A stretch of DNA of 64,000 bases from Candidatus Uhrbacteria bacterium RIFCSPHIGHO2_02_FULL_46_47 (GCA_001790815.1 MGDU01000020.1:14277-78276); one strand, 5' to 3'. Positions 3,346 to 63,184 are shown, counted from the first letter of the stretch. A program made the numbers and translations. The notes: generated from the sequence alone by a model not told the origin.

Positions 3346-3347
3346 AG

Positions 3348-11071: not shown

Positions 11072-11169
11072 ATTGATTATGATACGAATCTACAAATGAT
11101 TGGCGAATCTTCGAATATGCGAATTCGTATATTGGTAGATTCGTCATTAATTCGCTGATTCGTATCGTA

Positions 11170-14788: not shown

Positions 14789-14826
14789 GTGTAAATTTTG
14801 AGTCTAAATTTGACTAAAACTTACAC
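14789..14826. repeat. Partial (terminal 37 nt) copy of the 147-bp foldback repeat unit
   Basis: Identical to 15976-16012 (TGTAAATTTTGAGTCTAAATTTGACTAAAACTTACAC). Confidence 0.85.
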
Positions 14827-14902
14827 TGGGAAGTTCTTTGCCAAAATGAAAAAGACCGGCGTCCCGTAGAGAGCCGGCGAGGAAGGAGCGTGGTTGCTGT
14901 GG

Positions 14903-15406
14903 TCAGCGTTGCTGGCGGCCTGCCCGTCGAAGCATGGCGAGAACGTCACGCCGTGCGGTGGCGCCAAGATAATGCTCAGCGTAGAGGTGTTCAATCGCCC
15001 TCTCTGCCTCCTGCATCGTGAGGAGGCTCACTTCAAAGGCGGTGATCAAGACCTTGCCGGTCCGAATCCATGGAAGCCCGAGCTGCTTCGCTGCCGCGAG
15101 TGCCTTGGCATCGTCGATGATCAGAACCGCATCCTCTTCGCGGCCGGCAAGCACAAGGCAAGCTGCTTCGCCCATGTCCAGATCGTAGGTCTGCTCGATC
15201 CCATTGCGCGCCCCAGAGTCTACGGTCATCACCTGGACACAGGTCAGCGAGGCGATCTCAAAGCCGGGACGGGTTTCTCCAGCCCGCGCCACTTCGTTAC
15301 GCACATCTTCCGGAACGATGATAGTTTCAAACAGAACCGGAAGGAGGTCGAGAAGGCCAACCTTGGAAAGCGCGATGATGGGACCGGAATCGACGATGGC
15401 TCTCAT
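14903..15406 (-). CDS. PIN-domain protein (COG2405/DUF3368-type), putative toxin
   Basis: The N-terminal IVDSGPIIALSKVGLLDLL pattern is typical of COG2405 PIN proteins. It overlaps the upstream UPF0175 gene by 4 nt. The locus is GC-rich. Confidence 0.65.
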   Translation of the reverse strand: MRAIVDSGPIIALSKVGLLDLLPVLFETIIVPEDVRNEVARAGETRPGFEIASLTCVQVMTVDSGARNGIEQTYDLDMGEAACLVLAGREEDAVLIIDDAKALAAAKQLGLPWIRTGKVLITAFEVSLLTMQEAERAIEHLYAEHYLGATARRDVLAMLRRAGRQQR

Positions 15407-15777
15407 GCAACTCTGGATCTGCGCTTGGCATGCGCCTTCATTGCACGCACTATACGCCGATCAGACACCGCTGCCGCCTCCGAATCATCCGCGTAGTACA
15501 AGCCCTCGGCTTTGAGGAGTTCCAGAAACTCCGCAAGTCGCATGCCCAGCGTCTTGGCCGCGACCCCAGCGGAGCAGGAACCTCTCTTGAAGAGGGCGAG
15601 TACAAGCTGACGACGACCCTCGCGAGCTGCCTCCGCCTTGAGCTTCGCGCTCACATGCGTGGGCAACTCGAAATCCACATGTACGCGTGTGGCCACAGTA
15701 GAACCTCCTGTTGTGTGTTGCATAGAGTGAACGGCAGCGTGGGCTGCCAGAAATTGAGAACCGACCTTTATCTTCAC
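15403..15777 (-). CDS. UPF0175 (COG2886) family antitoxin
   Basis: LVLALFKRGSCSAGVAAKTLGMRLAEFLELLKAEGL matches the UPF0175 HTH-like core. It is paired with a COG2405 PIN protein. Confidence 0.6.
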   Translation of the reverse strand: MKIKVGSQFLAAHAAVHSMQHTTGGSTVATRVHVDFELPTHVSAKLKAEAAREGRRQLVLALFKRGSCSAGVAAKTLGMRLAEFLELLKAEGLYYADDSEAAAVSDRRIVRAMKAHAKRRSRVA

Positions 15778-15865
15778 AATACACCTTGGTGCGGAACTCC
15801 GTCAATGCCTCGCGTCTCCGTCGTCTCCCTCTTCGTCTCCACCTGAGCATCGTGTTCCCGCCGAT

Positions 15866-16012
15866 TGTAAGTTTTAGTCAAAAATGTATGCATTTTTTAC
15901 AAAAAAATAGAATCGCTCATTGGCGAATATTCGCTAGAATAAGCAATCTTTGACAAGTTTGATATTCTATTTTTTTGTAAATTTTGAGTCTAAATTTGAC
16001 TAAAACTTACAC
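15866..16012. repeat. 147-bp quasi-palindromic foldback repeat unit (copy 1)
   Basis: Near-perfect reverse complement of 16639-16787. Termini are GTAAGTTTTAGTC...GACTAAAACTTAC, with the internal palindrome GCGAATATTCGC. Confidence 0.9.
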
Positions 16013-16022
16013 CTTTCGCTAT

Positions 16023-16613
16023 TCAGCATCGCAGCGCTTCCGTGTAGCGCGCATTCAAGAGGAGCGCGTCAATTTGCGAATCAATCAGTGGAATGAAACG
16101 GCGGTCAATGCGTACGAATTTACGGCAAGGAACCTCGAGAAAGTAAAGCTCGCCCGGCATCTCATCAGGAACCCTGAATCCGGAAAGTCCGCGTTCTGAT
16201 GTGAAGGGATTTCGGTAATCACGAAAGAGAACGTATTGGTTCTGCTCAATCCAGGCGTCCAGACTGCCGAACGGTTCATATGTAGCGGGCTCATGAAAGA
16301 AGAGAAGACTCAAATAGGTGTCGCTGTCTTTCATGGGTGATGGCGCGAGTACAATGAGAGAAATGCGTGTCTGATCTTGTGGGCGCGCGATTAGCCAGCC
16401 GGATGGTACGTCAAAGGCAATTGGACCTAGTTCGATCGACATTGCATCGATGGGGGTGACAGTCGGAGTCGGTCTATGACGGTGGCTTCCGAGTGCCCAC
16501 GCAGTGGGAAGCCCAATGAGGCTGACAAGCGCCAAAAAGGCTGCAACCACCCAGGGTCGCCCGCAAGTGTGTAAGCTGCTACTTGGCACCATATATTTCC
16601 AATTTACTCCCAT
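16023..16613 (-). CDS. Hypothetical secreted protein (signal peptide), GC-rich cassette
   Basis: N-terminal ...VVAAFLALVSLIGLPTAWA. Flanked on both sides by the 147-bp repeat units. Confidence 0.55.
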   Translation of the reverse strand: MGVNWKYMVPSSSLHTCGRPWVVAAFLALVSLIGLPTAWALGSHRHRPTPTVTPIDAMSIELGPIAFDVPSGWLIARPQDQTRISLIVLAPSPMKDSDTYLSLLFFHEPATYEPFGSLDAWIEQNQYVLFRDYRNPFTSERGLSGFRVPDEMPGELYFLEVPCRKFVRIDRRFIPLIDSQIDALLLNARYTEALRC

Positions 16614-16638: not shown

Positions 16639-16787
16639 TCTGTAAGTTTTAGTCAAATTTAGACTCAAAATTTACAAAAAAATAGAATATCAAACTTGTC
16701 AAAGATTGCTTATTCTAGCGAATATTCGCCAATGAGCGATTCTATTTTTTTGTAAAAAATGCATACATTTTCGACTCAAACTTACAG
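16639..16787. repeat. 147-bp foldback repeat unit (copy 2, inverted relative to copy 1)
   Basis: Reverse complement of 15866-16012 with only a few mismatches. Confidence 0.9.
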
Positions 16788-18714: not shown

Positions 18715-19806
18715 CTATATTTTGATAATTGCCACACGATCCAATCTTGCCAGATCTTTTACTATTTTTACGCTGGCGCGCGGGAAAAATGTCCGCGCTA
18801 AAATTTTTATGTCGTCGGATTGATGAGGGTCAATTTCGCAAATTACAGACACTCGTAACTCCCCCTCACCCCCTCTTACCCTAAGAGGGGGAATGCCTTT
18901 TGACCCATCTCCTCCCCTTAAGATAAGGGGAGGTTGGGAGGGGTTATGTATTTTTTTCAATTGTTCAAACAATTTTCTATAATAATCCAACCCGGTTTTC
19001 CCTCCATCCAACGCGCCCCTAGGCTCAAAATTGCGCACTTCTGGCATAGCGCCCCGCCATTCACGGGTGGGCAGATACGGAAGATTGGCAGTGATTAGGA
19101 GATGAGTAGGTAGTATGTAGTATGTAGGAGGTAGAAATGGTTTGAGTAGGTTGCCATGGAAAAATTTAATTTTCTCTTCCACACCGTGCTGCTTGGCATT
19201 TTGTTTGGCCACGCGCAATGCCGCACGCGAGATATCAGTGGCAAAAAATGTAATCGCGTCTCCTCGTGGCCAGGCCACGGGTCGCGCCTGCGGCAGTGAC
19301 CTGGCCACTTCCACCGCGATTGCCACCACAATCGCCCCACTGCCAGTTCCAATATCAACAACCGTGTAACGTGTAGCGCGTAACTTGTAACGTGTCATTT
19401 CCTTGAGTGCCTCATCTACCAATATTTCCGTTTCCGGCCGCGGGATAAGCACATTTCTGTTCACTAAAAAATCCAATCCGTAAAATTCTTTGTGCCCGAT
19501 AATATACGCCACCGGCTCATGATTTATCCGTCGCGTGATAAATTGTTTAAAAATTTTGAGCTGCGCAGAGGTCAGTTTTTGCTCCGGATAGCCGTACAGC
19601 CATGCACGCCCCCTCACCTCATTCCTCTCCCTCAGGGAGAGGATGTCCAGTAGGACAGGTGAGGGTGAAACGGCATGCGTCAAAAGCACCTCCGCATCAA
19701 GCGCGGGTGAATCCGTCACTGAGTGATGGGCACCCTTATCACTCAGTGACGACCCGGTTTTTTTCAATTGCGCTATCCCCCACTTTAGCGCTTCGGCAAT
19801 TATCAT
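18715..19806 (-). CDS. prmC: Release-factor glutamine N5-methyltransferase PrmC/HemK
   Basis: VDIGTGSGAIVVAIA (SAM motif I) and the NLPYLP (NPPY) motif. Two in-frame repeat insertions (19611-19674 and 19093-19135). The 3' end reads through family-C elements at 18841-18950, so the native stop is probably near 18960. Confidence 0.8.
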   Translation of the reverse strand: MIIAEALKWGIAQLKKTGSSLSDKGAHHSVTDSPALDAEVLLTHAVSPSPVLLDILSLRERNEVRGRAWLYGYPEQKLTSAQLKIFKQFITRRINHEPVAYIIGHKEFYGLDFLVNRNVLIPRPETEILVDEALKEMTRYKLRATRYTVVDIGTGSGAIVVAIAVEVARSLPQARPVAWPRGDAITFFATDISRAALRVAKQNAKQHGVEEKIKFFHGNLLKPFLPPTYYILPTHLLITANLPYLPTREWRGAMPEVRNFEPRGALDGGKTGLDYYRKLFEQLKKIHNPSQPPLILRGGDGSKGIPPLRVRGGEGELRVSVICEIDPHQSDDIKILARTFFPRASVKIVKDLARLDRVAIIKI

Positions 19807-19812
19807 ATATCT

Positions 19813-21009
19813 CTAATATGACACATTGTATCCGGTTGGCACAATTTCAATCCAAGTTGTGCCGCCGTTAAATTCTATTTCATTGCCTTGCGCGTCATAA
19901 AAGCGCATACGCTCCCGCGCACTTGGCTTTTTCCAAGTGCCAACTGACACGCGCCCGTCTTGGAATACCAATCCTTTGCCTTCGCCAATTGTAGTAAATT
20001 GTTTGCGCCCCAGATCGTCCAGCACTTTCATCTCTTCAAACGCCACCGCGATATTTTTTGTCACAATTTCCCGACCTTGCGCGTCTTTGTGTACCCCACC
20101 CCATTGCATGCGCGTGTATGAATTTCGCGCCTTGTCATAAAGCCACTCCACATTGTATGGCGCGGCATATCCTATCTTAATATCACTTACATTACCGCGT
20201 ACATCCGGCGAGGCATCGCCTTTGAATTTCCATGGATCAATATTTGGAAGCTCAGCTTCCGCAGCTGCGGAAGCTGAGCTTCCAAATATATCATCATATG
20301 CTTTTCTCAAAAGTTCAGAAGAAGTTAATACATTATGCGGCGCAGGACGGCTGGTCACGCGCCGAAAATACTCGCTCTTGTACCATTGATCAAGATCGTG
20401 CACGCCTTCTACTCCCTGTTTTCGAAGCATATCGTATGCCACAGGGCTTGAACCCACATGACCATAAAGCGTATCAAACTCGGAAGCCCAGTCCAGATAA
20501 TATGGTCGTGCTGAGCGTACTGGCCCGATTTCAATGTCCCCCCCTCCCCTAGCCCCTCCCACGGGTGGGGGGGGATTTCCATCTACTTCCTCCACCTTGA
20601 TGGGGGAGGATTGAGGTGGGGGTGGGGGCAATACAAAATATGCTAAAAATCGTGTAATGTTTGCTTCCGTCAGTGCTTCAAAAACAAGATTTGCGTCTGC
20701 AAGACCGGAAATCGGTTGTGCCTCAACCATATTCTCAACCATCACTCCTGCAAACGGCGATTTTTCCTTTCCTGGCTCAACCAGCACTCCGTCAAGCCCT
20801 CTACGCACGGCTGCAACCTCTGCCACTTTTGCCACTTCTGTCACCTTCGGCTTGCGCCAGGGAGCTAATTTCAACATCACCACAAGTACTAAAAAAACAA
20901 GAACCGCAACAAGTACGGTTTCTTTTCGCGCATGATGAAATTTTTTTTTGTTTTTCATTTCTTTATTTTTCTCGTAAAAAGGAGGCGCGGATGCGCGGCG
21001 TTCCCGCAC
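19813..21009 (-). CDS. DUF3048 (YerB-like) domain protein, membrane-anchored
   Basis: N-terminal TM, ...ANITRFLAYF...IGPVRSARPYYLDWA... Contains the in-frame element 20541-20630 and a 48-nt perfect palindrome at 20241-20288. Confidence 0.55.
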   Translation of the reverse strand: MRERRASAPPFYEKNKEMKNKKKFHHARKETVLVAVLVFLVLVVMLKLAPWRKPKVTEVAKVAEVAAVRRGLDGVLVEPGKEKSPFAGVMVENMVEAQPISGLADANLVFEALTEANITRFLAYFVLPPPPPQSSPIKVEEVDGNPPPPVGGARGGGDIEIGPVRSARPYYLDWASEFDTLYGHVGSSPVAYDMLRKQGVEGVHDLDQWYKSEYFRRVTSRPAPHNVLTSSELLRKAYDDIFGSSASAAAEAELPNIDPWKFKGDASPDVRGNVSDIKIGYAAPYNVEWLYDKARNSYTRMQWGGVHKDAQGREIVTKNIAVAFEEMKVLDDLGRKQFTTIGEGKGLVFQDGRVSVGTWKKPSARERMRFYDAQGNEIEFNGGTTWIEIVPTGYNVSY

Positions 21010-21977: not shown

Positions 21978-23063
21978 TCACACCCGCGCGCGAATTGATT
22001 GCACAATGCCAAGCAATAAAAAATTGGAAAGCATGGCTGAACCGCCTAAAGATACAAATGGCAAAGGCAAGCCCACAATTGGCAAAAGACCAACATTCAT
22101 TCCAATATTCAAAATCATTTGCATGGCCACCAAAATGGCAAATCCAGCGATGCAAAAAAGCGCGAATCCGTCGGTTGTTTTCCTGGAAAGAATCAAAAGC
22201 CGCCACATCATGACTGCGTAGCAGGCCAAAATCAACACCACAATAAAAAATCCCAATTGCTCGGCAAGCACGGCAAAAATAAAATCTGTTTGCGCTTCTG
22301 GCAAAAATCTAAGCTGTGATTGCGATCCCTCCCCCAGTCCGCGTCCCAAAATCCCGCCAGCGCCAACTGCAATTACGGATTGGCGGATATTGTAGCCGCG
22401 ACCGAATGGATCTGAAGCGGGATTAACAAAGCTTGAAACGCGCGCTTTTTGATAATCGTGCAGGAAAAAATTCCACCCAAGCACCAAAGTGACGGCCAGA
22501 AGCATTAATCCAAAAAAAACATAACGGCGCGGCACATTTGTTAAAAGCAGCATCCCGAGCGTTATGCCAAAAAGCGTAAGCGCTGATCCAAAATCCGGCT
22601 GCAAAAGCGTAGGCGCCACATACAATCCCGAAATAATTCCGAGATTTAATATAACCTTAAAATCAATTATGTGCGCTTTGAGCGACAGATATTTTGCCAG
22701 CACAACAATCAAAATTACTTTTGCAAGCTCAACCGGCTGAACGGTAAATGTACCGATTTGAAACCATCCGCGCGTGCCGCGAATAGTGGTTCCAAAAATT
22801 ACCACCGCCAGCAAAATTAGCGCTCCCGCAACATACAAAGTCTTCGAAAGTGAACGAAAGGCGCGATAATCAAAGTAACTTATAAAAAGCACCAGGACAA
22901 TTCCGCCTCCTACAAATGCAATCTGTTTTTGAAAATTGGCAAGCGTCCCGGGTGCTTGCGCCAAATCAACGCTCCAAATTCCAAGAATGCCAAGACCTGA
23001 AAGTATGAGCGTGCACAAAAAAAGGATCCAATCGATCCTCCTAAATATCATCATTAACCGCAT
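21978..23063 (-). CDS. FtsW/RodA/SpoVE (SEDS) family peptidoglycan glycosyltransferase
   Basis: ~10 TM helices and the conserved ...SDPFGRGYNIRQSVIAVGAGGILGRGLGEGSQ...LPEAQTDFIFAVLAEQLGF block. Confidence 0.88.
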   Translation of the reverse strand: MRLMMIFRRIDWILFLCTLILSGLGILGIWSVDLAQAPGTLANFQKQIAFVGGGIVLVLFISYFDYRAFRSLSKTLYVAGALILLAVVIFGTTIRGTRGWFQIGTFTVQPVELAKVILIVVLAKYLSLKAHIIDFKVILNLGIISGLYVAPTLLQPDFGSALTLFGITLGMLLLTNVPRRYVFFGLMLLAVTLVLGWNFFLHDYQKARVSSFVNPASDPFGRGYNIRQSVIAVGAGGILGRGLGEGSQSQLRFLPEAQTDFIFAVLAEQLGFFIVVLILACYAVMMWRLLILSRKTTDGFALFCIAGFAILVAMQMILNIGMNVGLLPIVGLPLPFVSLGGSAMLSNFLLLGIVQSIRARV

Positions 23064-23163
23064 AGCTGTGATGCAAATCTACAAATCTTATGCACATTTA
23101 CGAATTGCGAATAAATTCATTTGTATTTGTAGATTGGCATGAAATTCGTATATTGGCATCATA

Positions 23164-26097: not shown

Positions 26098-26246
26098 CGT
26101 AACTCCCCCAACCCCCTCTTACCCTAAGAGGGGGTTTTTGTTTGTGCTCCACCCCTTAGGATAAGGCCCGCTTCGCCCGCAAAGCGAGGCGAGGGAGGTA
26201 GGAGGGGTTACGAAATTTGATGTAGCCGCAGGTCTTTAGCCTGCGC
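26098..26246. repeat. Composite of repeat families C and D immediately after the gyrB stop (GTAACTCCCCC...CCCTAAGAGGGGG, ...CCTTAGGATAAGG...GGAGGGGTTACG, then GTAGCCGCAGGTCTTTAGCCTGCGC)
   Basis: Subunits recur at 18841-18950, 11876-11946, 52259-52300, 41722-41746 and 61060-61111. Confidence 0.8.
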
Positions 26247-26327
26247 AAAATTACAACACACAATGCGCGGGGGCTTGCCTGCCCCGCACCGAGCTTTGCT
26301 CTGGTGCGTTGGGTCCCCCGTTAAAAA

Positions 26328-26365
26328 TTATGTCAACTGTGAGCGATCGTTTATATTTGACATAA
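26328..26365. promoter_or_regulatory. Conserved 38-nt palindromic motif TTATGTCAA-N20-TTGACATAA (copy 1 of 4)
   Basis: Identical core at 53858-53895 and 63147-63184, and a diverged copy at 41245-41288. All copies lie next to GC-rich islands. Confidence 0.6.
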
Positions 26366-26366
26366 T

Positions 26367-26882
26367 TTATTTTCCGTGTCGTAATACATATAAGGCCACA
26401 CCGGCGGCGACGGAAACATTGAGAGATTCTTTTTGGCCAAGCATGGGGATTTCAACTACAGCATCTACGCGTTTGAGCACGCCGTCTGATACGCCATTGA
26501 CTTCATTGCCAACCACAAGAGCAAGTGGAAATTTGGGATGCCAACTATCAATTGTAGCCGCAGGCTTTAGCCTGCGTTCTTGTCTTGGTGCGCCGGCTAA
26601 AGACCGGCGACTACGATCGAGCATATTATTTTCCAATGCCACCACATATATGCCTTGCGCTTTTAACTCTTCCACAACTTTCCAAGTCTGTCCCCTTTTT
26701 TCCCATGGCACTGTTTTTTCCGCACCTAACGCAACTTTACTAATTTCTTTTCGCGGCGGCGCTCCTGTATAGCCGCAAAGATAGATTTTTTTTACGCCAA
26801 ACGCGTCCGCAGTACGAAAAAGTGACCCAACATTATAAAGACTGCGAACACGATCTACAATAAGATATACTTCCCTGTGCAT
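26367..26882 (-). CDS. SpoU/TrmH-family RNA 2'-O-methyltransferase
   Basis: ...LIVDRVRSLYNVGSLFRTADAFGVKKIYLCGYTG... is the SPOUT fold. It contains an in-frame family-D hairpin pair (26554-26614). Confidence 0.8.
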   Translation of the reverse strand: MHREVYLIVDRVRSLYNVGSLFRTADAFGVKKIYLCGYTGAPPRKEISKVALGAEKTVPWEKRGQTWKVVEELKAQGIYVVALENNMLDRSRRSLAGAPRQERRLKPAATIDSWHPKFPLALVVGNEVNGVSDGVLKRVDAVVEIPMLGQKESLNVSVAAGVALYVLRHGK

Positions 26883-27051
26883 AGTACCCTAGCTTGACAC
26901 AAAAGTGACTATATTGTAAAGTAATTAACTGGCCCTGGGACGGGGCTTTTTTAGGACAACACGATGCCAATATACGAATTTCATGCCAATCTACAAATAC
27001 GAATTCGCAATTCGTAGATTAGCATAAGATTTGTAGATTTGCATCACAATT

Positions 27052-27978: not shown

Positions 27979-28401
27979 ATGGCAAAGAAAGTAAAGACAG
28001 TCATTAAACTCCAAATTCCCGCAGGCAAGGCAAACCCCGCGCCTCCGGTTGGTCCAGCACTTGGTCAACATGGTCTTAACATTTCCGAGTTTTGCCAAAA
28101 ATTCAACGCCGCGACATCAAAGCTGGGCGATGATATTATTCCGGTTGAAATTACGGTTTTTGAAGACCGCACCTATACTTTCAAAACCAAAACTCCACCG
28201 GCATCTGAACTTTTGAAAAAAGCCGCCGGCATTACAAAAGGTTCTGGCAAGGCGCTTGTTGAAAAAGTCGGCAAAGTAACACGCGCGCAAATTCGCGAGA
28301 TTGCGGAGCGTAAACTTCCGGACTTAAATACTAAAGATGTTGAAGCCGCGATGCGCACCATTGAAGGCACCGCGAAACAGATGGGACTGGAAGTAGTATG
28401 A
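27979..28401 (+). CDS. rplK: 50S ribosomal protein L11
   Basis: [35 protein letters not shown]... is the L11 signature. Confidence 0.95.
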
Positions 28402-28504
28402 TACGAATCACCGAATATCTGACGAATCTGCGAATATACGAATTCGTTGATTCGCATATTTGTTGATTCGCCTAAAATTTGTAGATTCGTATCACATATA
28501 TTAT

Positions 28505-32645: not shown

Positions 32646-33347
32646 CTAGAGCTTTTGTAATTTATATACAACATCCTTTCTTTCCACCACAATTTCCCAT
32701 CCTTTTTTCTTGGCCACTTGGTACAAGCCGCTTGAAGGATTAAAAGCAATTGGCCGATCAACTATTTCAAACATTGAAATATCGCTTTCTGTATCCCCGA
32801 CCGCGATTGACCCGCGCAAGGTAACATTGTATTTTTCCAGCACATGCTTGATAAGCAAATGTTTGTTCCGCACGGAATAGATGTATTTCATATTTCCTGT
32901 ATAGCGGCCGCTTTTGTCAGTTTCAAGAACCCAGCCGTAGGTCTTATCAAATCGCAGGAAACGATTGTACCAACGCACAATTTCAAATGGCGATCCGGAT
33001 ATGGCCACAATAAAGTAATTCTTTTTCTTTAGCTCTAAAATAAGATCGCGCGTAAAGCGATACACATGCGACTTTTCACTGGATACAATTTTACGACTAA
33101 TGCGCCGTATATCGCTTTGCTTTTTCCCTCTGATATGCGCGATAAATACTTTTACTAATTTTTCAAGATACACATCATATGATCCTTTGCGATTAAGCCA
33201 GGCGCGCAAATACGGATCCACTTCTTCCCGTGCGCCTTTTGAAAAAATTCCTTCATTCACTAAATAGGAAAAAAGCCGGCGGGTTAAACTGCTTCTAAAA
33301 ATCGTTCCATCCACATCAAACACCGCTAATTTCCGCAATTTCTGCAT
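32646..33347 (-). CDS. HAD-superfamily hydrolase (HAD-IB-like)
   Basis: LAVFDVDGTI is HAD motif I. C-terminal ...GDTESDISMF is motif IV. Confidence 0.6.
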   Translation of the reverse strand: MQKLRKLAVFDVDGTIFRSSLTRRLFSYLVNEGIFSKGAREEVDPYLRAWLNRKGSYDVYLEKLVKVFIAHIRGKKQSDIRRISRKIVSSEKSHVYRFTRDLILELKKKNYFIVAISGSPFEIVRWYNRFLRFDKTYGWVLETDKSGRYTGNMKYIYSVRNKHLLIKHVLEKYNVTLRGSIAVGDTESDISMFEIVDRPIAFNPSSGLYQVAKKKGWEIVVERKDVVYKLQKL

Positions 33348-33465
33348 AGATGTGATGCAAATCTACAAATCTTATGCTAATTTACAAATTGCGAATTTGT
33401 ATTTGTAGATTTGAATGACATTTGTATATTGGCATTGTAGCACAGTTATGATATAGTCCCCTAAT

Positions 33466-35545: not shown

Positions 35546-36157
35546 ATGATATCTATTATTGCCGCGGTTGCAAAAAATGGAGTAATCGGTGCGAAAAATG
35601 ATTTGCCCTGGTATTTGCCCGAAGACTTGAAGCATTTTAAAGAGCTCACTACAGGTAAAACAGTGCTGATGGGGCGCAAAACTTTTGAATCAATTCTGAA
35701 ACGTTTAGGCAAACCCTTGCCCAATCGCAAAAATGTGGTGGTCACGCGGGATCGAAATTATACCCTCTCACCCCCTCCTCAATCCTCCCCCATCAAGGGG
35801 GAGGAAGAAAAAGGAAAAAATCCTCTCCCACAAGGGGAGAGGAAGAACCAAAAAATTCCCTCTCCCTTAATGGGAGAGGGTGCTCCGACCGCAGTCGGAG
35901 CGGGTGAGGGTGTATGTGTACACCACTCGGTTGACGAAGCGCTTGAGCACCACAGTGCCGAAGAAATTATGGTTGCCGGCGGAGGCGAGATATTTAGGCA
36001 AACAATGGACAAAGCAGATACGCTTTATGTTACTGAAGTCGACAAAATTGTAGAAGGCGATGTTTATTTTCCAACGATTGATCCAAAGATCTGGAAAGAA
36101 GTTACCCGCGAACCACATGATGGTTTTTCATTTGTCACCTATATTCGCAATTCGTAG
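35546..36157 (+). CDS. folA: Dihydrofolate reductase carrying a ~55-aa in-frame repeat-element insertion
   Basis: MISIIAAVAKNGVIGAKNDLPWYLPEDLKHFKELTTGKTVLMGRKTFESI is canonical DHFR. The insertion TLSPPPQSSPIKGEEEKGKNPLPQGERKNQKIPSPLMGEGAPTAVGAGEGV is encoded by 35762-35928. Confidence 0.88.
   Translation: MISIIAAVAKNGVIGAKNDLPWYLPEDLKHFKELTTGKTVLMGRKTFESILKRLGKPLPNRKNVVVTRDRNYTLSPPPQSSPIKGEEEKGKNPLPQGERKNQKIPSPLMGEGAPTAVGAGEGVCVHHSVDEALEHHSAEEIMVAGGGEIFRQTMDKADTLYVTEVDKIVEGDVYFPTIDPKIWKEVTREPHDGFSFVTYIRNS
35762..35928. repeat. Composite nested palindromic element (outer CCCTCACCC...GGGTGAGGG; inner family-B core CCCCCTCCTCAATCCTCCCCCATCAAGGGGGAGG; CCCTCTCCC..GGGAGAGGG; GCTCCGACCGCAGTCGGAGC)
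   Basis: Four nested hairpins, GC-rich relative to the flanking folA sequence. Confidence 0.85.
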
Positions 36158-36177
36158 ATTGGCATGAAATTTGTAGA

Positions 36178-36879
36178 TTGGCATCACATATGAAAGGAAC
36201 TTTCATCGTTATTGAAGGCACAGACGGCTCTGGAAAAACAACCCATCTTGAACTGGCTGTAAAAAAACTCACTGCCGACAGCCGTGCAGTTGAAGTTGTG
36301 GATTTTCCACAATACGGCAAAAAAAGTGCTGGCCCGGTTGAAGAATACTTAAATGGGAAATATGGCAGCGCTCAAGAAGTGTCCCCTTATGTGGCTTCAC
36401 TTTTCTATGCAGTTGATCGTTTTGATGCCTCCTTCAAAATCAATAAAGCGCTTACTGATGGAAAAATCGTGCTGGCCAATCGCTATGTTCCGTCTAACAT
36501 CGCGCATCAAGGCGCAAAAATTACGGACATTGCTGAGCGGCAAAAATTCATGCATTGGGTAGAGGAGATAGAGTACGGCATTATGAAACTCCCCAGACCA
36601 GATCGCGTGATTTTCCTGCATGTACCAGCTCATATAAGCTTCGAGCTTGTCGAGAAGAAAAACGAACGCGCCTATTTGCAAGAAGGGAAAAAACGTGATA
36701 TCCATGAATCAGATCTTTTATACCAAAAAGCAGTGGAGCAAAGCTATCTTGAGCTTGCCGCGCATGATACTACTGTAAAGACGATAGAGTGCGCGCCGGA
36801 AGGAAAACTCCTTTACATTGAAGAAATTCATCCTTTAGTCATGAAACAAATTTATGATCTCTTTCAGCAATCTGCTTAA
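36178..36879 (+). CDS. tmk: Thymidylate kinase
   Basis: GTFIVIEGTDGSGKTT is the dTMP kinase P-loop, and the LID region is present. Confidence 0.9.
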   Translation: MASHMKGTFIVIEGTDGSGKTTHLELAVKKLTADSRAVEVVDFPQYGKKSAGPVEEYLNGKYGSAQEVSPYVASLFYAVDRFDASFKINKALTDGKIVLANRYVPSNIAHQGAKITDIAERQKFMHWVEEIEYGIMKLPRPDRVIFLHVPAHISFELVEKKNERAYLQEGKKRDIHESDLLYQKAVEQSYLELAAHDTTVKTIECAPEGKLLYIEEIHPLVMKQIYDLFQQSA

Positions 36880-40222: not shown

Positions 40223-41206
40223 TCACAAACGAAAATTTCGCACGAGCCGTGCGGCTTCTTTTTTATTTTTCACCCACACAATTCTCTTATCCCTTTTAAA
40301 CCACGTCATCTGTCGGCGGGAATAATCTTTTATCGCGCGAGAAAGCTCTTTTTGCATCGTTCCGAGATTGGCGCGATCGCGAGAATCTCGGAATCCTGTT
40401 TTGGCACGGTAATTTTGCAAATAACGACTTATATGTCGATATTCTAAACCAAAGGATTCTAGGCGCTTCCAGGACACGCCTTGCGCGTGCAAACGCTCAA
40501 CTTCCTTAATCATCCCCTGCTTTAACCGCTCTTTAAGGCGTTTATCAATTCGGGGATCAAGCACATGTTTTGGAAAAGTAAGGCCTAGCATCAGCATCTC
40601 ATAAGGCGGCGGATGTTTTACGCGCTGTTTGGAAAGTGGAATGCCGGTCACCACACAAATCTCAATTGCCCGCTCCAGACGGCGGCGATTATTTTTATCA
40701 ATAGTGCGATATGTTTCCGGATCTAACTTTTTAAGTTTGGCACGCAACTCACGCAATGACATCGTGGCTAATTTTTTTCGTAACTTCAGATCAGGCGATG
40801 CCTCTGGCAAAACATAGCCATCAACCACAGCTTGCACATAAAGTCCAGTGCCACCAACCAGAATTGGCACTTTGCCGCGGCGCAAAATATCATCAATTGC
40901 TCTATATGCGAGCTTTTGATACTGCGCAAGCGTAAAATTCGTCCTTGGACTGACGATGTCAATAAGATGATACGGAATCCCCTCACCCCCGTCCCTCTCC
41001 CCGCGGGAGAGGGTGGCCGCAGGCCGGGTGAGGGCGGGGTGATGGCCATATTCGCTTAAATCTTTCCCCGTTCCAATATCCATGCCCTTATATACCTGCC
41101 GCGAATCCGCGCTTACAATCTCGCCATTAAACTTTCGTGCCAACTCAACCGCGAGTTTTGTTTTACCAGTGGCAGTTGGTCCAACGATTACAATTAATTT
41201 TTGCAT
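40223..41206 (-). CDS. miaA: tRNA dimethylallyltransferase with an in-frame repeat insertion
   Basis: MQKLIVIVGPTATGKTKLAVELA...ADSRQVYKGMDIGTGK... Insertion 40974-41052 encodes LTRPAATLSRGERDGGEG. Confidence 0.9.
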   Translation of the reverse strand: MQKLIVIVGPTATGKTKLAVELARKFNGEIVSADSRQVYKGMDIGTGKDLSEYGHHPALTRPAATLSRGERDGGEGIPYHLIDIVSPRTNFTLAQYQKLAYRAIDDILRRGKVPILVGGTGLYVQAVVDGYVLPEASPDLKLRKKLATMSLRELRAKLKKLDPETYRTIDKNNRRRLERAIEICVVTGIPLSKQRVKHPPPYEMLMLGLTFPKHVLDPRIDKRLKERLKQGMIKEVERLHAQGVSWKRLESFGLEYRHISRYLQNYRAKTGFRDSRDRANLGTMQKELSRAIKDYSRRQMTWFKRDKRIVWVKNKKEAARLVRNFRL

Positions 41207-41244: not shown

Positions 41245-41288
41245 ATGTTGTCAAAATAGCACGATCGTGTCAATTTGACAACAATTTA
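41245..41288. promoter_or_regulatory. Diverged copy of the 38-nt palindromic motif (ATGTTGTCAA..CGATCG..TTGACAACAATT)
   Basis: Shares the ATGT(T)GTCAA / CGATCG / TTGACA-AATT architecture and abuts the GC-rich island 41290-41650. Confidence 0.45.
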
Positions 41289-41353: not shown

Positions 41354-41590
41354 TCAGCATGAGGATCGATGAGGAGCTTCTTTGCGGAAGCGCCACCAGA
41401 TAATCGGCCATGCGAACAGCACGATCGTGACTCGAGAACTCGTCTGAAACAGAATTCCCTTGTCCTCCGAACCAGTGCGGCGCATCTCCTCCCACGTCAT
41501 TCCTGTGAGCCGCATCTCAAGGCGCACCATGACCACGATGCCGACGACGAGATACATTGCGAACACGAGCGCGATTTGCCAATCCATCAT
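41354..41590 (-). CDS. Small two-TM membrane protein in a GC-rich island
   Basis: MMDWQIALVFAMYLVVGIVVMV...IVLFAWPIIWW. The start was set at the internal MM of track ORF 41354..41617. Confidence 0.4.
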   Translation of the reverse strand: MMDWQIALVFAMYLVVGIVVMVRLEMRLTGMTWEEMRRTGSEDKGILFQTSSRVTIVLFAWPIIWWRFRKEAPHRSSC

Positions 41591-41755
41591 GTACACCTCC
41601 TGCGCGAAGGGTACCACATTTTTGGACTTTTGTCAAGGCCGGGGGGTGTGGTAGAATGAAAAAATGTAGCGCGGGGCTTTATGCCCCGCTTAAGCGGCAC
41701 ACAAGGTGCCGCGCTACCATTGCGCCGGCTAAAGACCGGCGGCTACAATAATCTT

Positions 41756-44729: not shown

Positions 44730-46583
44730 CTAAGTCTTATTTTCAATTTCTTTTTTCACACGTTTGATAAACGCACTAACAGCCATTTGCGGCTGTTTTT
44801 GCTGTCCGCGAATGCGCACAGTTAATTTACGAAGTGACTTCTCTTTATCACCTATTACCAGCATATACGGAATCTTTTGCTTTTCTGCTTTGCGAATTTT
44901 ATAACCAACCGTATCGTTGCCATCATCTGTTTCCACCCGCAGCCCTTCGGCGCTGAGCATTTTCCCAAGCTTGCGTACAGCAGTGCTATGTCCTTTGCCA
45001 ACTGAACCCACATATACTTGCACCGGAGCAAGCCATACCGGAAACGCCCCGCCGTAGTGTTCAATAAGAATTGAAAGATAGCGTTCAATAGATCCCATAA
45101 TAGCCGCGTGGATCATGACAATACGCTCTTTTTCGCCTTTTTCATTCACACAAGTAAGATCAAACCGCTCTGGCTGATTCATATCCAGCTGAATAGTAGC
45201 AACTTGCCACTGCCGCCCGAGCGAATCTTTAGCCAAAAAATCAATTTTAGGGCCATAAAATGCCGCCTCCCCTTTTGCCTCTATTGCCTTTTCTCTTTTT
45301 TCTTTTATCACAGCACGTAATTGCCCTTCTGCATTCTGCCATTGCGCTTCTTCTCCAAGATATTTGTCCATCTGTGCGGGATCATGCAGTGAAAGACGCA
45401 CAGTAAGAGAAAATCCGGCAGCTTTATAAAATTTCTTAATAATTTCCCAGATATTGCTTATTTCCTTTCCAATCTGGGATGTTCGGCAAAACACATGCGC
45501 GTCATCTTGAGTAAAGGCGCGCACGCGAGAAAGGCCGTGCAACTCTCCGGTTTGCTCATCACGGTAGCATGTCGTTGTATTAGCATATCTCTGTGGGAGT
45601 TCGCGATAACTAAACTGCCGACGCGCATACAATTGAGTGTGGTGCGGACAATTCATCGGCTTCATCGCAAACTCATGCCCCTCACGCGTGGTAATCTTAA
45701 ATAATTCATCTTTAAACTTTTGCCAATGCCCGCTTTTTTCGTACAAATCTTTTTTGGTAATATGAGGGATTTCCACTTTTTGATAGCCATATGGCGCGCG
45801 CAATTCCCACACAAAATTATCAAGTGTGTTGCGCAAAAATGTACCCTTGGGCGTCCAAAGCGGAAGACCTGGGCCGACTAAATCTGAAAAAGTAAAAAGA
45901 TCTAGTTGTTCGCCAAGTTTGCGGTGATCTCTCTTTTCTGCCTCAGCCATCATTTCCAAATGCTTTTTTAATTCATCTTCAGTATAAAATGCAAGGCCGT
46001 AAATGCGCTGAAGTTGCTTGTTCTTTTCGCTTCCTCGCCAATATGCGCCGGCAATGCTGGTAAGTTTAAATACGCCAATTTGTCCAGAATGTTCCACATG
46101 CGGCCCGCGACAAAGATCAATAAACTTCCCAGTTTCATAAACTGAAACCTTCATAACCCCCTTGTCCCCCCTTATCTTAAGGGGGGTACTTATTTTTTCT
46201 CCCTCCCTTAAGGTAAGGGAGGGTTGGGGAGGGTTATGCAGAATCTCATCCATCTTCGTCGTACCATGCTTCTTGATATCCTCAAGGAGTTCTACCTTAA
46301 AATCCTGCCCGCGCCCCTTAAAATATGCAATCGCTTCCTCAAGCGGCATTTCACGGCGCACAAACTTTTCCTTGCGCTTCTGAATCTCCTTTATCCGCTT
46401 TTCAATTTTAAGCAAGTCCACTGGTGTAAATTTGTGCTCCAAATCAAAATCATAAAAAAAGCCGTTTTCAATCACCGGCCCTACTCCCAATTTTGTGTCG
46501 GGGAATAATTCAAGAACCGCGCCAGCAAGAATGTGGGCGGTTGAGTGGCGTACTGTTTCTATGGGAAAATGCTCGTCGGCCAT
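44730..46583 (-). CDS. thrS: Threonyl-tRNA synthetase with an in-frame repeat insertion
   Basis: Class II motifs (...CRGPHVEHSGQIGVFKL..., ...MIHAAIMGSIERY...). Insertion 46145-46245 encodes PPQPSLTLREGEKISTPLKIRGDKG. Confidence 0.92.
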   Translation of the reverse strand: MADEHFPIETVRHSTAHILAGAVLELFPDTKLGVGPVIENGFFYDFDLEHKFTPVDLLKIEKRIKEIQKRKEKFVRREMPLEEAIAYFKGRGQDFKVELLEDIKKHGTTKMDEILHNPPQPSLTLREGEKISTPLKIRGDKGVMKVSVYETGKFIDLCRGPHVEHSGQIGVFKLTSIAGAYWRGSEKNKQLQRIYGLAFYTEDELKKHLEMMAEAEKRDHRKLGEQLDLFTFSDLVGPGLPLWTPKGTFLRNTLDNFVWELRAPYGYQKVEIPHITKKDLYEKSGHWQKFKDELFKITTREGHEFAMKPMNCPHHTQLYARRQFSYRELPQRYANTTTCYRDEQTGELHGLSRVRAFTQDDAHVFCRTSQIGKEISNIWEIIKKFYKAAGFSLTVRLSLHDPAQMDKYLGEEAQWQNAEGQLRAVIKEKREKAIEAKGEAAFYGPKIDFLAKDSLGRQWQVATIQLDMNQPERFDLTCVNEKGEKERIVMIHAAIMGSIERYLSILIEHYGGAFPVWLAPVQVYVGSVGKGHSTAVRKLGKMLSAEGLRVETDDGNDTVGYKIRKAEKQKIPYMLVIGDKEKSLRKLTVRIRGQQKQPQMAVSAFIKRVKKEIENKT

Positions 46584-53857: not shown

Positions 53858-53895
53858 TTATGTCAACTGTGAGCGATCGTTTATATTTGACATAA
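53858..53895. promoter_or_regulatory. Conserved 38-nt palindromic motif (copy 2)
   Basis: Identical to 26328-26365 over the full 38 nt. Confidence 0.6.
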
Positions 53896-54057: not shown

Positions 54058-54423
54058 CTAATGCATTCCTTCAATAATATCAATTTCTGGTTTCTCTTTC
54101 ACATTTTTTTGGCTCATGTTTTTATATGCGGCCGCTTCTGCCATCTGTCTTGCTACATTGCTCTCCTTAATGCGCTTTGAGCCGATTCCCATTGCGGCCA
54201 AAAATTCTAACAATGGTTCTTGTGCCTCTGGCTTATTTGCTAAATCAAGATTAAGCAATTTATCAACAGTTTCTGTGCCAAGTTGTCCAAGAAAGTAATC
54301 AGCCTTTTCAGGTGATTTACCAGTATCTAAACCACTTACTCTCAGTCGAGATTCCTGTGCTTTTTCTGGAGCTTTCCCTGTTTCTGCGCCCGGTGGTCGA
54401 TATTTCCCTTCACCTTCTGGCAT
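54058..54423 (-). CDS. Hypothetical small protein, paralogous promoter class A
   Basis: 121 aa. Its upstream module is homologous to that of 30675..31001 but is interrupted by a MITE. Confidence 0.45.
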   Translation of the reverse strand: MPEGEGKYRPPGAETGKAPEKAQESRLRVSGLDTGKSPEKADYFLGQLGTETVDKLLNLDLANKPEAQEPLLEFLAAMGIGSKRIKESNVARQMAEAAAYKNMSQKNVKEKPEIDIIEGMH

Positions 54424-54621: not shown

Positions 54622-54900
54622 GCAAGGGGGGATGTGGATAACTTGGATGCCATTGCTTGACAAAAATGCGTAATATGGTATGCTGAATATGGTTATCAAT
54701 CCATGAGCCACACTCCTATCCGGAGTCAAAAAACAGTCCCGCATTTGCGGGATTGTTTTTCATATTCACAATTTTTGCTATACTTAAGAGTGCACGGAGT
54801 GGCTAGGAGGGTATTGCTATACAGTTTTATAGCCATGGATTGATAACCCATTGACCCCGAAAGGGGTGTGGTGCAACTCCACTGCCCTCCGTGTAAAAAT

Positions 54901-59111: not shown

Positions 59112-59127
59112 TCGTAGATTCGTGACA

Positions 59128-62612: not shown

Positions 62613-62927
62613 ATGGCAGAGAGTAATAACGAAATCCTAGAAGCAATCCAAACGCTTTCTACGCATGTGGATGGGCAGATTGGCGAGGTGAGAAAAGAGA
62701 GTGGCGAGGTGAGAAAAGACCTGACCGGTCAAATCGGCAAATTACGCAGCGACCTTATTGATCATGTTACCAAAACCGTAAATAACGCTAAGGGAGATAT
62801 TGTACAAAGTATCAAGACCGACCGCGAGCGACACAAATTGTTTCATGAAAAAGTGCTTAACATTTTTGAGCGCAGCAAAATTGCCGAACCAGAAGAAGTT
62901 GCGGTATTAAGGGAGTTAGTTGTGTAA
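62613..62927 (+). CDS. Hypothetical coiled-coil protein with an internal 21-nt tandem repeat
   Basis: GGCGAGGTGAGAAAAGA occurs twice at 62682-62720, encoding GEVRKESGEVRKD. Confidence 0.4.
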   Translation: MAESNNEILEAIQTLSTHVDGQIGEVRKESGEVRKDLTGQIGKLRSDLIDHVTKTVNNAKGDIVQSIKTDRERHKLFHEKVLNIFERSKIAEPEEVAVLRELVV

Positions 62928-63146: not shown

Positions 63147-63184
63147 TTATGTCAACTGTGAGCGATCGTTTATAATTGACATAA
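63147..63184. promoter_or_regulatory. Conserved 38-nt palindromic motif (copy 3)
   Basis: TTATGTCAACTGTGAGCGATCGTTTATAATTGACATAA; one mismatch to copies 1 and 2. Confidence 0.6.

What the first reader, a model, noticed from the sequence alone, without database searches (positions are those of the whole stretch)
26328..26365. Conserved 38-nt palindromic motif TTATGTCAA-N20-TTGACATAA next to GC-rich islands (four copies)
Identical or near-identical copies lie at 26328-26365, 53858-53895 and 63147-63184, all with the internal sequence CTGTGAGCGATCGTTTATA(T/A)T and a shared 3' extension TTTATTTT(C)CGTG. A diverged copy lies at 41245-41288. Each is within ~100 nt of a GC-rich island or fragment. 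The 9-bp arms separated by exactly 20 nt, together with this association with foreign DNA, suggest an integration or recombination site (att-like). Other possibilities are a transcription-factor operator or an RNA hairpin terminator with a 20-nt loop.
Basis: seen in the sequence. Interest (0 to 1): 0.75.

Follow-up and report, generated by a model that had tools for sequence, protein, structure and literature searches.

The report
Binding site of a PaaX-like regulator
The repeated 38-base palindrome is most likely the DNA docking site of a small, uncharacterised DNA-binding protein (mislabelled "Cas2" in databases) of these ultra-small Patescibacteria, not an integration site for foreign DNA.

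Summary
The motif is real. There are three near-identical 38-nt copies and one diverged copy, and all four fit TGTCAA-N7-CGATCG-N7-TTGACA (0.01 expected by chance).

The same tripartite palindrome occurs almost only in Patescibacteria/CPR genomes. In loci fetched by DNA pattern alone, it repeatedly lies beside a gene for a ~190-aa protein with a winged helix and a Cas2-like domain (Pfam PaaX_M).

In 9 of 9 loci where both flanks could be read, that gene is bracketed by two copies of a palindrome. The palindrome sequence changes with the paralogue. The upstream copy usually overlaps the gene's -35 box.

The window's own genome (Uhrbacteria RIFCSPLOWO2_01_FULL_47_24) encodes such a protein on another contig, bracketed by exact copies of the window motif. 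The diverged copy matches the bracket of a paralogue found in a very close relative.

Best reading: these are operator or roadblock sites of a PaaX-like repressor. E. coli PaaX likewise binds TGATTC-N27-GAATCA.

The link to GC-rich islands is no stronger than for any intergenic position (p about 0.06-0.29). The att-site idea is not supported.

Still unexplained: copies within a genome are identical, and in other CPR genomes they sit in-frame inside recG and pth. A REP/RAYT-like selfish spread therefore remains a live rival.

The parts
26328..26365 (.). Copy 1 of the 38-bp palindrome (main subtype): TTATGTCAA CTGTGAG CGATCG TTTATAT TTGACATAA. It is an orphan site between the convergent 3' ends of gyrB(+) and trmH(-). 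The repeat unit spans about 26317-26373.
   Evidence: It differs by 1 nt from the reverse complement of the copies that bracket the cognate PaaX-like gene in the same genome. It lies 1 nt from the trmH stop codon.
53858..53895 (.). Copy 2 (main subtype), identical to copy 1. It lies about 100 nt downstream of the terminator of ORF 54058-54423(-) and about 580 nt upstream of dnaE (49720-53280, -).
63147..63184 (.). Copy 3 (main subtype, loop ...TATAAT). It is the exact reverse complement of both copies that bracket the PaaX-like gene P0031 on contig MGDS01000048.1 of the same genome. It lies about 160 nt after the terminator of ORF 62613-62927(+), beside a GC-rich stretch.
41246..41283 (.). Copy 4, a second subtype: TGTTGTCAA AATAGCA CGATCG TGTCAAT TTGACAACA. 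It lies 40 nt upstream of the miaA start (40223-41206, -) and just after a terminator-like hairpin on the minus strand.
   Evidence: Its arms, centre (CACGATCGTG) and right half match the palindromes that bracket the paralogue P0022/P0039 (ATTGTTGTCAACTATTCACGATCGTGCTATATTGACAACAA).

Best explanation
The motif is the cognate double-stranded DNA site of a small dimeric DNA-binding protein. [quoted passage not shown] It resembles PaaX but lacks PaaX's C-terminal ligand domain.

SHOWN:
- The window's genome encodes such a protein (P0031, 192 aa) between metK and murE. Two exact copies of the motif bracket the gene.
- The same [palindrome]-[gene]-[palindrome] layout holds for every paralogue or orthologue whose two flanks could be read (9 of 9).
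- The palindrome sequence differs from one paralogue to the next. The geometry arm(6)-N7-CGATCG-N7-arm(6) is kept in 8 of those 9; the P0017 bracket has a different centre (CGGCCG) and longer spacing.

INFERRED:
- A dimer contacts the two outer TGTCAA half-sites and the central CGATCG block.
- At its own gene, the outward-facing TTGACA arm doubles as the -35 hexamer, so binding would exclude RNA polymerase (autorepression, as in E. coli PaaX).
- The four window copies are orphan sites of the same two proteins. They sit just after terminators or stop codons and upstream of the next promoter. There the bound protein most likely acts as a repressor, or as a roadblock or insulator against read-through.
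- How the site came to be copied as a unit of about 40-57 nt around the genome is not explained.
For: 1. Pattern-only scans. Scans for TGTCAA-N7-CGATCG-N7-TTGACA gave 32 genome loci, about 27 of them from Patescibacteria MAGs. A narrower scan (A/T-extended arms) gave 15 metagenome loci. tblastn then found a PaaX_M-domain gene right next to the palindrome in L003, L008, L021, L032, L038/L045 and L049.

2. Reverse test, starting from the protein. P0023, P0022, P0017, P0026, P0031, P0039, P0171 and P0212 are each bracketed by two palindromes. The arms vary with the paralogue (TGTCAA, TGTCCC, GAGCTA, CTTCAA, CGACAT). The N7-CGATCG-N7 spacing is kept in all but the P0017 bracket, which has a CGGCCG centre and 9-nt spacers.

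3. Same genome. The window matches GCA_001791005.1. That assembly carries P0031, bracketed by TTATGTCAATTATAAACGATCGCTCACAGTTGACATAA, which is the reverse complement of window copy 3.

4. Promoter overlap. The palindrome arm is followed by a -10-like hexamer at the right spacing in L058 (TTGACA-16-TAAAAT), L021 (TTGACT-16-TATAAT), L003 (TTGACA-18-TAAAGT) and L054 (TTGACA-18-AATAAT). In L072, TTGACA-17-TAAAAT-7-ATG lies inside the palindrome.

5. Protein identity. Pfam PaaX_M scores E 1e-14 to 1e-17. The NCBIfam PaaX model matches profile positions 42-152 only, and the cas2 model matches residues 114-168. The AlphaFold2 model has pLDDT 77. Foldseek hits Cas2 structures, and hits PaaX 8a39 and Rv0674 over about 135 columns.

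6. Precedent. E. coli PaaX binds TGATTC-N27-GAATCA and represses its own promoter by steric hindrance (PMC9493321).

7. Pattern of dyad symmetry. It is concentrated in the outer and central blocks. The 4-nt linker is asymmetric in 34% of cells, including in bracket copies. This fits protein contacts better than an obligatory hairpin.

8. Stability. The metK-paaX-murE order is conserved between species whose PaaX-like proteins are 65% identical. An orphan site is also conserved between L018 and L044.
Against: - No binding experiment exists. The link rests on adjacency and co-variation alone.
- Copies within a genome are identical over 36-57 nt, spacers and partly flanks included. Independently evolved operators would not look like this.
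- In Nealsonbacteria and Paceibacterota the palindrome sits in-frame inside genes. This was checked against solved homologues for recG and pth, and seen as uninterrupted ORFs for tsaD, uvrC and a comEA-like gene. It also sits 4 nt after a stop codon and 7 nt before the recR start. An operator has no obvious business in these places.
- The window's orphan copies have no convincing -10 element downstream of either arm, so what they regulate is unclear.
- The half-site centres are 26 bp apart, about 2.5 helical turns, which puts them on opposite faces of straight B-DNA.
- The P0017-type palindrome has a different spacing.
- Assignment of contig MGDS01000048.1 to the window's genome relies on MAG binning.
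Confidence: 0.62

Rival explanations
1. A REP/RAYT-like selfish system. The palindromes would be miniature mobile or homogenised repeats. The flanked winged-helix/Cas2-like gene would be their single-copy, vertically inherited cognate partner, which mobilises or maintains them, possibly through a Cas2-type nuclease activity. Any transcriptional effect would be a by-product.
For: - The genomic signature matches REP-RAYT pairs. Each gene is flanked by its own repeat type, several paralogue/repeat pairs coexist in one genome, and the gene is syntenic and single-copy.
- Copies within a genome are identical over 36-57 nt.
- The palindrome appears as an in-frame insertion in recG (about 22 extra residues compared with T. 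maritima RecG) and in pth.
- The residues matching the Cas2 signature, D-x-P-E ... R ... Q-x-S-x-W, are invariant.
- The cas2 model scores above its curated cut-off.
Against: - There is no HUH/Y1 transposase domain or any other known transposase domain, and no target-site duplication was seen.
- In PaaX the Cas2-like fold serves for dimerisation.
- The copies seen are modest in number (4 in 64 kb).
- No insertion polymorphism was observed between relatives. The L018/L044 site and the bracket synteny are both stable.
- The upstream copy is positioned on the promoter, as expected for a repressor.
Confidence: 0.22
2. An RNA-level element: a hairpin that acts as an intrinsic, partly bidirectional terminator or as an mRNA 3'-end stabiliser. 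It would be repeated only because it is a good terminator.
For: - The + strand RNA folds into a stem of about 17-19 bp (three G.U pairs, one 1x1 mismatch) with a GAUC tetraloop. Free energy is -15 to -18 kcal/mol with z of -4 to -4.8. The - strand RNA forms only the outer stem, at about -9 kcal/mol.
- An A-rich tract lies upstream and a T-rich tract downstream.
- The copies lie at gene ends.
- Dyad-symmetric co-variation is strong.
Against: - The strongly folding strand is antisense to the flanking genes in L018, L044, L038/L058 and at window copy 2.
- Ordinary GC-rich terminators already stand next to copies 1, 2 and 3 and to the L018/L044 site. For copy 4 only a weak 5-pair terminator-like match lies nearby.
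- Bracket copies in L003, L051 and L054 cannot pair in the linker.
- A terminator model does not explain the invariant TGTCAA/CGATCG blocks across phylum-level lineages, or the linkage to one gene family.
- Rfam gives no hit.
Confidence: 0.1
3. An att- or dif-like recombination site at which GC-rich foreign islands or gene cassettes integrate.
For: - The two copies that flank the PaaX-like gene are in direct orientation, like the boundaries of a cassette.
- One paralogue with three neighbouring ORFs lies between rseP and pheS in a relative, whereas those two genes are adjacent in the window (compared).
- In related genomes, palindromes and GC-rich small ORFs co-occur in the trmH-gyrB spacer.
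- From memory only: the TTATGTCAA arm resembles the XerD arm of dif.
Against: - The GC association is not significant, and the islands are unrelated to one another.
- No integrase or Xer gene is adjacent to the copies.
- No second arm lies at the 6-8 nt spacing a dif-like site needs.
- The TTA flank is specific to this lineage.
- There are no viral hits.
- The sites and the bracketed gene are syntenic across species.
Confidence: 0.05

Closest known systems
E. coli / Pseudomonas PaaX repressor and its operator (TGATTC-N27-GAATCA)
   Same: - The protein has a winged helix followed by a Cas2-like (PaaX_M) domain.
- The site is two 6-bp inverted half-sites separated by a long spacer.
- The regulator's own promoter is covered by the site, giving autorepression by steric hindrance (PMC9493321).
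   Different: - The CPR proteins are about 175-220 aa and lack the C-terminal phenylacetyl-CoA-binding domain.
- They score 37 bits against a cut-off of 264 for the PaaX equivalog.
- No paa genes are nearby.
- The spacer is 20 bp, with a conserved CGATCG at the dyad.
- The gene is bracketed on both sides.
- The sites are multi-copy and near-identical.
REP sequences and their RAYT genes (REPINs) in proteobacteria
   Same: - Palindromes of 20-40 bp are dispersed around the genome.
- Each repeat family is paired with a single-copy, vertically inherited gene that it flanks.
- Several such pairs can coexist in one genome.
(General knowledge of REP/RAYT.)
   Different: - The associated protein is not an HUH/Y1 transposase homologue.
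- There is no GTAG or CGTC tag.
- The flanking copies are direct rather than inverted.
- Some copies in other genomes lie inside genes.
Rickettsia palindromic elements (RPEs)
   Same: In other CPR genomes the palindrome is inserted in-frame in conserved genes (checked for recG and pth; seen as uninterrupted ORFs for tsaD and uvrC) without breaking them.
   Different: - These elements are 36-60 nt, against about 100-150 nt for RPEs.
- They are linked to a cognate DNA-binding protein gene.
- All the window's own copies are intergenic.
Promoter-coupled terminators, and terminator palindromes that double as transcription-factor sites (Fletcher et al., bioRxiv 10.64898/2026.08.19.745784)
   Same: A palindrome at the end of one gene has a downstream arm that serves as the -35 box of the next promoter, and a transcription factor can bind it.
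   Different: - In the preprint the palindromes are diverse and single-copy.
- The present case is a conserved, multi-copy family tied to one protein family.
- Most orphan copies lack a matching -10 element.
CRISPR-associated Cas2
   Same: The C-terminal domain matches Cas2 models above the curated cut-off, and NCBI annotates these proteins as Cas2.
   Different: - The proteins carry an N-terminal winged helix.
- No cas1 gene was called and no Cas domain other than the weak Cas2 match appears in any locus with gene calls. CRISPR arrays were not searched for.
- They are twice the size of Cas2.

Membership tests
PaaX-family transcriptional repressors | [quoted passage not shown] | tested here: met
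   Weak Pfam hits to HTH_45, PadR and PaaX N-terminal models. A weak sequence match to the AspA winged helix. The AlphaFold2 model shows a helix followed by a beta-hairpin wing at residues 43-86. Foldseek aligns about 135 columns with PaaX 8a39 and Rv0674.
PaaX-family transcriptional repressors | Central Cas2-like (PaaX_M, PF20803) dimerisation domain | tested here: met
   PF20803 scores E 2e-14 and 8e-17. The domain is precomputed for every homologue listed except two short fragments.
PaaX-family transcriptional repressors | C-terminal helical ligand-binding (phenylacetyl-CoA) domain, with a full-length match to the PaaX equivalog | tested here: not met
   The proteins are 175-222 aa. TIGR02277 matches profile positions 35-155 of 279 only, at 37 bits against a cut-off of 264.55.
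PaaX-family transcriptional repressors | Operator made of two 6-bp inverted repeats with a long spacer, overlapping the regulator's own promoter | tested here: inconclusive
   The layout matches (6-N20-6, with the arm acting as the -35 box in at least 5 loci), and the precedent is in PMC9493321. Binding itself has not been tested.
REP / RAYT systems | Dispersed palindromic repeats whose family-specific copies flank a single cognate gene | tested here: met
   Bracketing was seen in 9 of 9 loci, with paralogue-specific palindromes.
REP / RAYT systems | The cognate gene encodes an IS200/IS605-like HUH Y1 transposase (RAYT) | tested here: not met
   Pfam, NCBIfam and PADLOC show only PaaX_M, Cas2 and winged-helix matches.
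Intrinsic (Rho-independent) terminators | Stable RNA hairpin immediately followed by a U tract on the transcribed strand | tested here: inconclusive
   This is met on the + strand (-15 to -18 kcal/mol, followed by UAAUUUAUUUU). That strand, however, is antisense to most flanking genes, and the sense-strand hairpin is weak (-9 kcal/mol).
Xer/dif-like or att recombination sites | Two recombinase-binding arms separated by a 6-8 bp central region, with a recombinase or island boundary at the site | tested here: not met
   The arms are 20 bp apart. No partner arm lies 6-8 bp outside either arm. No recombinase gene is adjacent to any copy; the one resolvase-family gene called, in L059/L060, lies about 2.5 kb from the bracket. 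The island association is not significant.
CRISPR-Cas adaptation module (Cas2) | Cas2 encoded next to cas1 and a CRISPR array | tested here: not met
   No cas1 gene was called and no other Cas domain was found in L051-L072. CRISPR arrays were not searched for explicitly.

The most novel reading that the evidence does not exclude
The small winged-helix/Cas2-like proteins and their palindromes may form a previously unrecognised REP/RAYT-like partnership that is widespread in Patescibacteria. The family has more than 3,000 clusters at 50% identity. In this reading, a non-transposase protein with a Cas2 fold recognises, and perhaps propagates or homogenises, its own 32-42-bp palindrome throughout a tiny genome, including in-frame into essential genes. 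The same sites would be co-opted as promoter, operator or insulator punctuation.
Probability: 0.22. Interest if true: 0.8.

Novelty: new variant of a known kind. Interest (0 to 1): 0.6.

Why it matters
Patescibacteria have very few recognisable regulators, and none of their regulatory circuits has been mapped experimentally. This work gives a concrete, testable protein-DNA pair for them.

- **Annotation.** A large protein family, with 3,124 representative clusters at E<=1e-10, is currently annotated as "CRISPR-associated endonuclease Cas2". It is more likely a truncated PaaX-type DNA-binding protein.
- **Predictable sites.** Each paralogue's site can be read directly from the two palindromes that bracket its gene.
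- **Practical uses.** This corrects a systematic misannotation. It allows regulon or insulator maps to be drawn from sequence alone. It also supplies orthogonal repressor/operator pairs.
- **Open question.** If the palindromes prove to be mobilised by the protein, this would be a new kind of repeat-partner system built on a Cas2 fold.

Tried and rejected
- **Known RNA families.** Rfam at gathering threshold gave no match anywhere in the window.
- **Phage or attP origin.** The tripartite pattern has 0 matches in 2.9 million viral contigs.
- **Internal promoter.** The scan flags ATGTCA-16-TATAAT on the + strand. This is not conserved in other lineages' palindromes or in L044, so I rejected it as the general function.
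- **Outward-facing -35 with a fixed -10 at orphan copies.** No consistent -10 element was found.
- **dif/Xer similarity of the TTATGTCAA arm.** This was a lead from memory. There is no partner arm at 6-8 bp, and the TTA flank is lineage-specific.
- **Integron attC or LexA/SOS box.** I considered these from memory; the sequences do not fit. Literature searches for Patescibacteria LexA motifs or palindromic repeats returned nothing relevant.
- **Homology among GC-rich islands.** blastn and tblastx all-against-all gave nothing. Pfam on ten island ORFs gave nothing.
- **Central inversion in L044.** I first read this variant as an inversion of the central 12-mer. Alignment with its orthologue L018 shows plain point substitutions.
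- **G.U pairing on one strand.** It is real, but three same-direction transitions have a prior of only about 0.25. The folding strand is also antisense to the neighbouring genes, so I do not take it as proof of an RNA function.
- **Empty-site test at trmH-gyrB.** Relatives carry other palindrome subtypes, or none, in the same spacer. This is informative but not a clean presence/absence comparison.

Full report
**1. The observation**

Their 9-bp arms are perfect and the loop is CTGTGAGCGATCGTTTATA(T/A)T. Shuffled sequence gives 0.03 matches.

The diverged copy is a 38-nt palindrome at 41246-41283. All four copies share a more specific layout, TGTCAA-N7-CGATCG-N7-TTGACA, with 0.01 expected by chance.

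The repeat unit extends to about 57 nt. It has an A-rich left flank and a T-rich right flank (family D4). In copy 1 the right flank supplies the last two codons and the stop codon of a SpoU/TrmH gene.

The window is a Patescibacteria genome. Its TrmH protein and the surrounding 350 nt are identical to GCA_001791005.1, Candidatus Uhrbacteria bacterium RIFCSPLOWO2_01_FULL_47_24.

**2. The GC-rich association**

About 18% of the window is GC-rich in 150-nt windows, spread over some 33 segments. Among non-genic positions, 49-73% lie within 120-250 nt of such a segment. Four out of four copies being close to one therefore has p of about 0.06-0.29.

The islands share no nucleotide or translated similarity with one another. 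Their ORFs have no Pfam match. This part of the finding is not more than chance.

**3. The same palindrome across the CPR**

A scan of 185,579 species genomes for the 18 specified bases returned 32 loci. About 27 came from Patescibacteria MAGs: Paceibacterota, Nealsonbacteria, Uhrbacteria, Berkelbacteria, Saccharibacteria and an unclassified bin. A metagenome scan with a slightly narrower pattern (one extra base on each arm) added 15 more loci. A scan of viral contigs found none.

In most of these genomes the element is a perfect 36-42-nt palindrome that is identical among copies. The N7 segments and the outer flanks differ between genomes but stay dyad-symmetric.

I counted pairs on 32 distinct sequences:
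- 87.8% of cells are symmetric, against 65% in shuffles.
- 12 of 18 pairs show changes on both sides.
- The symmetry is concentrated in the outer block (nnn-TGTCAA) and the central block (nnn-CGATCG-nnn).
- The 4-nt linker is asymmetric in 34% of cells.

In Paceibacterota, two non-complementary half-site types (TCCGTGC and AGTTGGC) are combined freely.

**4. The link to a protein**

In two unrelated lineages, two loci had a pair of palindromes around a single gene. In both, the gene encodes a protein of about 190-200 aa with the Pfam PaaX_M (Cas2-like) domain and a weak winged-helix match.

tblastn then showed such a gene immediately next to the palindrome in six independent loci, all of which had been fetched by DNA pattern alone.

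Going the other way, I fetched contigs for homologues of this protein. Every one whose two flanks could be read is bracketed by two palindromes:
- P0023 and P0022/P0039 carry TGTCAA-type palindromes.
- P0017 has TGTCCC-N9-CGGCCG-N9-GGGACA, and P0026 has GAGCTA-N7-CGATCG-N7-TAGCTC. Both occur in one genome.
- P0171 from Nealsonbacteria has CTTCAA-N7-CGATCG-N7-TTGAAG.
- The distant P0212 has CGACAT-N7-CGATCG-N7-ATGTCG.

Together with L003 and L021 this makes nine of nine.

The decisive case is the window's own genome. It carries P0031 on contig MGDS01000048.1, between metK and murE. The gene is bracketed by TTATGTCAATTATAAACGATCGCTCACAGTTGACATAA, which is the exact reverse complement of window copy 3.

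Window copy 4 matches the bracket of the paralogue P0022/P0039 in its arms, centre and right half. P0039 was found in GCA_001791555.1, a close relative that also carries an identical P0031. One of P0039's protein accession numbers lies close to that of P0031, which suggests it is also in the window's genome. That was not shown directly.

**5. What the protein is**

The NCBIfam cas2 model matches residues 114-168 above its cut-off, which explains the NCBI name "Cas2". The PaaX equivalog matches only the winged-helix and central-domain part, at 37 bits against a cut-off of 264.

The AlphaFold2 model has mean pLDDT 77. It shows a helical N-terminus, a wing, and a ferredoxin-like domain. Foldseek finds Cas2 structures for the C-terminal half. 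Over about 135 columns it also finds E. coli PaaX (8a39) and Rv0674, at weak E values near 1e-2.

No cas1 gene was called, and no other Cas domain was found, in any locus with gene calls. I did not search for CRISPR arrays. A profile search finds 3,124 clusters (50% identity) at E<=1e-10, mostly proteins of 170-230 aa.

E. coli PaaX binds TGATTC-N27-GAATCA and represses its own promoter by steric hindrance (PMC9493321). That is the same logic as seen here.

**6. Mechanism**

At the cognate genes, the arm of the upstream palindrome is followed at 16-18 nt by a -10-like hexamer:
- L058: TTGACA-16-TAAAAT
- L021: TTGACT-16-TATAAT
- L003: TTGACA-18-TAAAGT
- L054: TTGACA-18-AATAAT

In L072 the whole core promoter lies inside the palindrome, 7 nt before the ATG.

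I infer that a dimer bound to the site excludes RNA polymerase. The second copy, 2-100 nt after the stop codon, may help by DNA looping or by blocking read-through.

The window's orphan copies sit after terminators or stop codons and upstream of the next gene. The same is true of the L018/L044 site. That site lies between a GC-rich terminator and a TTGACC-17-TATAGT promoter, and is conserved between species whose flanking protein is 74% identical. A repressor, roadblock or insulator role is the most economical inference, but it is not shown.

**7. What does not fit**

Copies within a genome are identical over spacers and partly over flanks. In Nealsonbacteria and Paceibacterota the palindrome lies in-frame inside genes. 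I verified this against solved homologues for recG and pth. For tsaD, uvrC and a comEA-like gene it rests on uninterrupted ORFs only. It also lies in a 43-nt gap between a stop codon and the recR start.

This is how REP or RPE-like selfish repeats behave. The pattern of each repeat family flanking its own gene is also the hallmark of REP/RAYT pairs. I therefore keep a REP/RAYT-like model as the main rival, while noting that no transposase fold is present.

The window subtype has an unexplained strand asymmetry. On the + strand the non-identical N7 segments pair through three G.U pairs (-15 to -18 kcal/mol, z about -4.5), followed by a U-rich tract. The - strand RNA reaches only about -9 kcal/mol. 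The folding strand is antisense to most neighbouring genes, including the cognate gene. It could serve as a backstop terminator for antisense transcription, or it could be coincidence.

**8. Verdict**

The motif is real and non-random.

The element belongs to a CPR-wide family of palindromes that has not been described, as far as the searchable literature shows. The family is paired with a large and misannotated family of truncated PaaX-like proteins.

Noticed in passing
window 52265-52349 (dnaE), 56553-56588 and 57487-57522 (pheT), 40980-41015 (miaA), 26556-26617 (trmH); also 18862-18948, 20538-20624, 26105-26197, 46158-46238: Several families of short GC-rich palindromic repeats (for example CCCTCTCCC...GGGAGAGGG, and GTAGCCGCAGGCTTTAGCCTGCG) are scattered through the window. 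Some are translated in-frame inside housekeeping genes. Examples are 'PPVGGVRGGGV' in DnaE, 'PLPRGEGEGGG' in PheT, and 'RRLKPAAT' in TrmH. Close TrmH homologues lack this stretch of about 18 residues. This is RPE-like behaviour and accounts for much of the 'GC-rich island' signal.
   Followed up: partly
window 54806-54891: The only tRNA found by ARAGORN is an 86-nt tRNA-Ile(GAT) with the anticodon at position 37. That is unusually long, which suggests an insertion, an intron or a long arm. It lies in a 520-nt gap with no ORF.
   Followed up: no
window 14790-14826 = 15976-16012 (identical 37 nt); 15866-15913 / 15964-16011 and 16640-16688 / 16739-16787: A separate AT-rich repeat family (TGTAAGTTTTAGTC...TTTACAAAAAAATAGAAT) forms 48-nt inverted pairs 50 nt apart. 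It brackets the GC-rich ORFs at 14894-15850 and 16023-16613. This family tracks GC-rich islands better than the motif under study does.
   Followed up: partly
window 11078-11144, 23044-23163, 27003-27048, 28397-28496, 33328-33439, 36143-36188: AT-rich repeats with an 8-bp phase (ATTCGCAATTCGTAGATTGGCATGAAATTTGTAGATT...) recur in intergenic regions, several of them upstream of translation-related genes (secE/nusG, rplA). They may be another regulatory or UP-like element (families D1, D3 and D12).
   Followed up: no
window 41354-41617 (-); L068 3368-3691; L069 about 3075-3410: GC-rich islands in this lineage encode small hydrophobic proteins. The L068 and L069 versions share the motif LGFLEFGIR.ALKR. 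In L069 a TGTCAA-type palindrome supplies the -35 box (TTGACA-17-TAACTT) of such a gene.
   Followed up: partly
L056 3567-7658, compared with window 59111-59128: In Uhrbacteria NC_groundwater_469, a block of about 4.1 kb lies between rseP and pheS. It holds a PaaX-like paralogue (P0017), its own palindromes and three unknown ORFs. In the window these two genes are only 16 nt apart.
   Followed up: partly
window 26330-26365 (and the other main-type copies): On the + strand the motif reads as a mini-ORF, ATG TCA ACT GTG AGC GAT CGT TTA TAT TTG ACA TAA (MSTVSDRLYLT*). This is probably a by-product of the TTATG...CATAA palindrome. In other genomes, the frame without a stop codon is the one used where the element is translated inside genes ('VSKSCDRRILT').
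   Followed up: no
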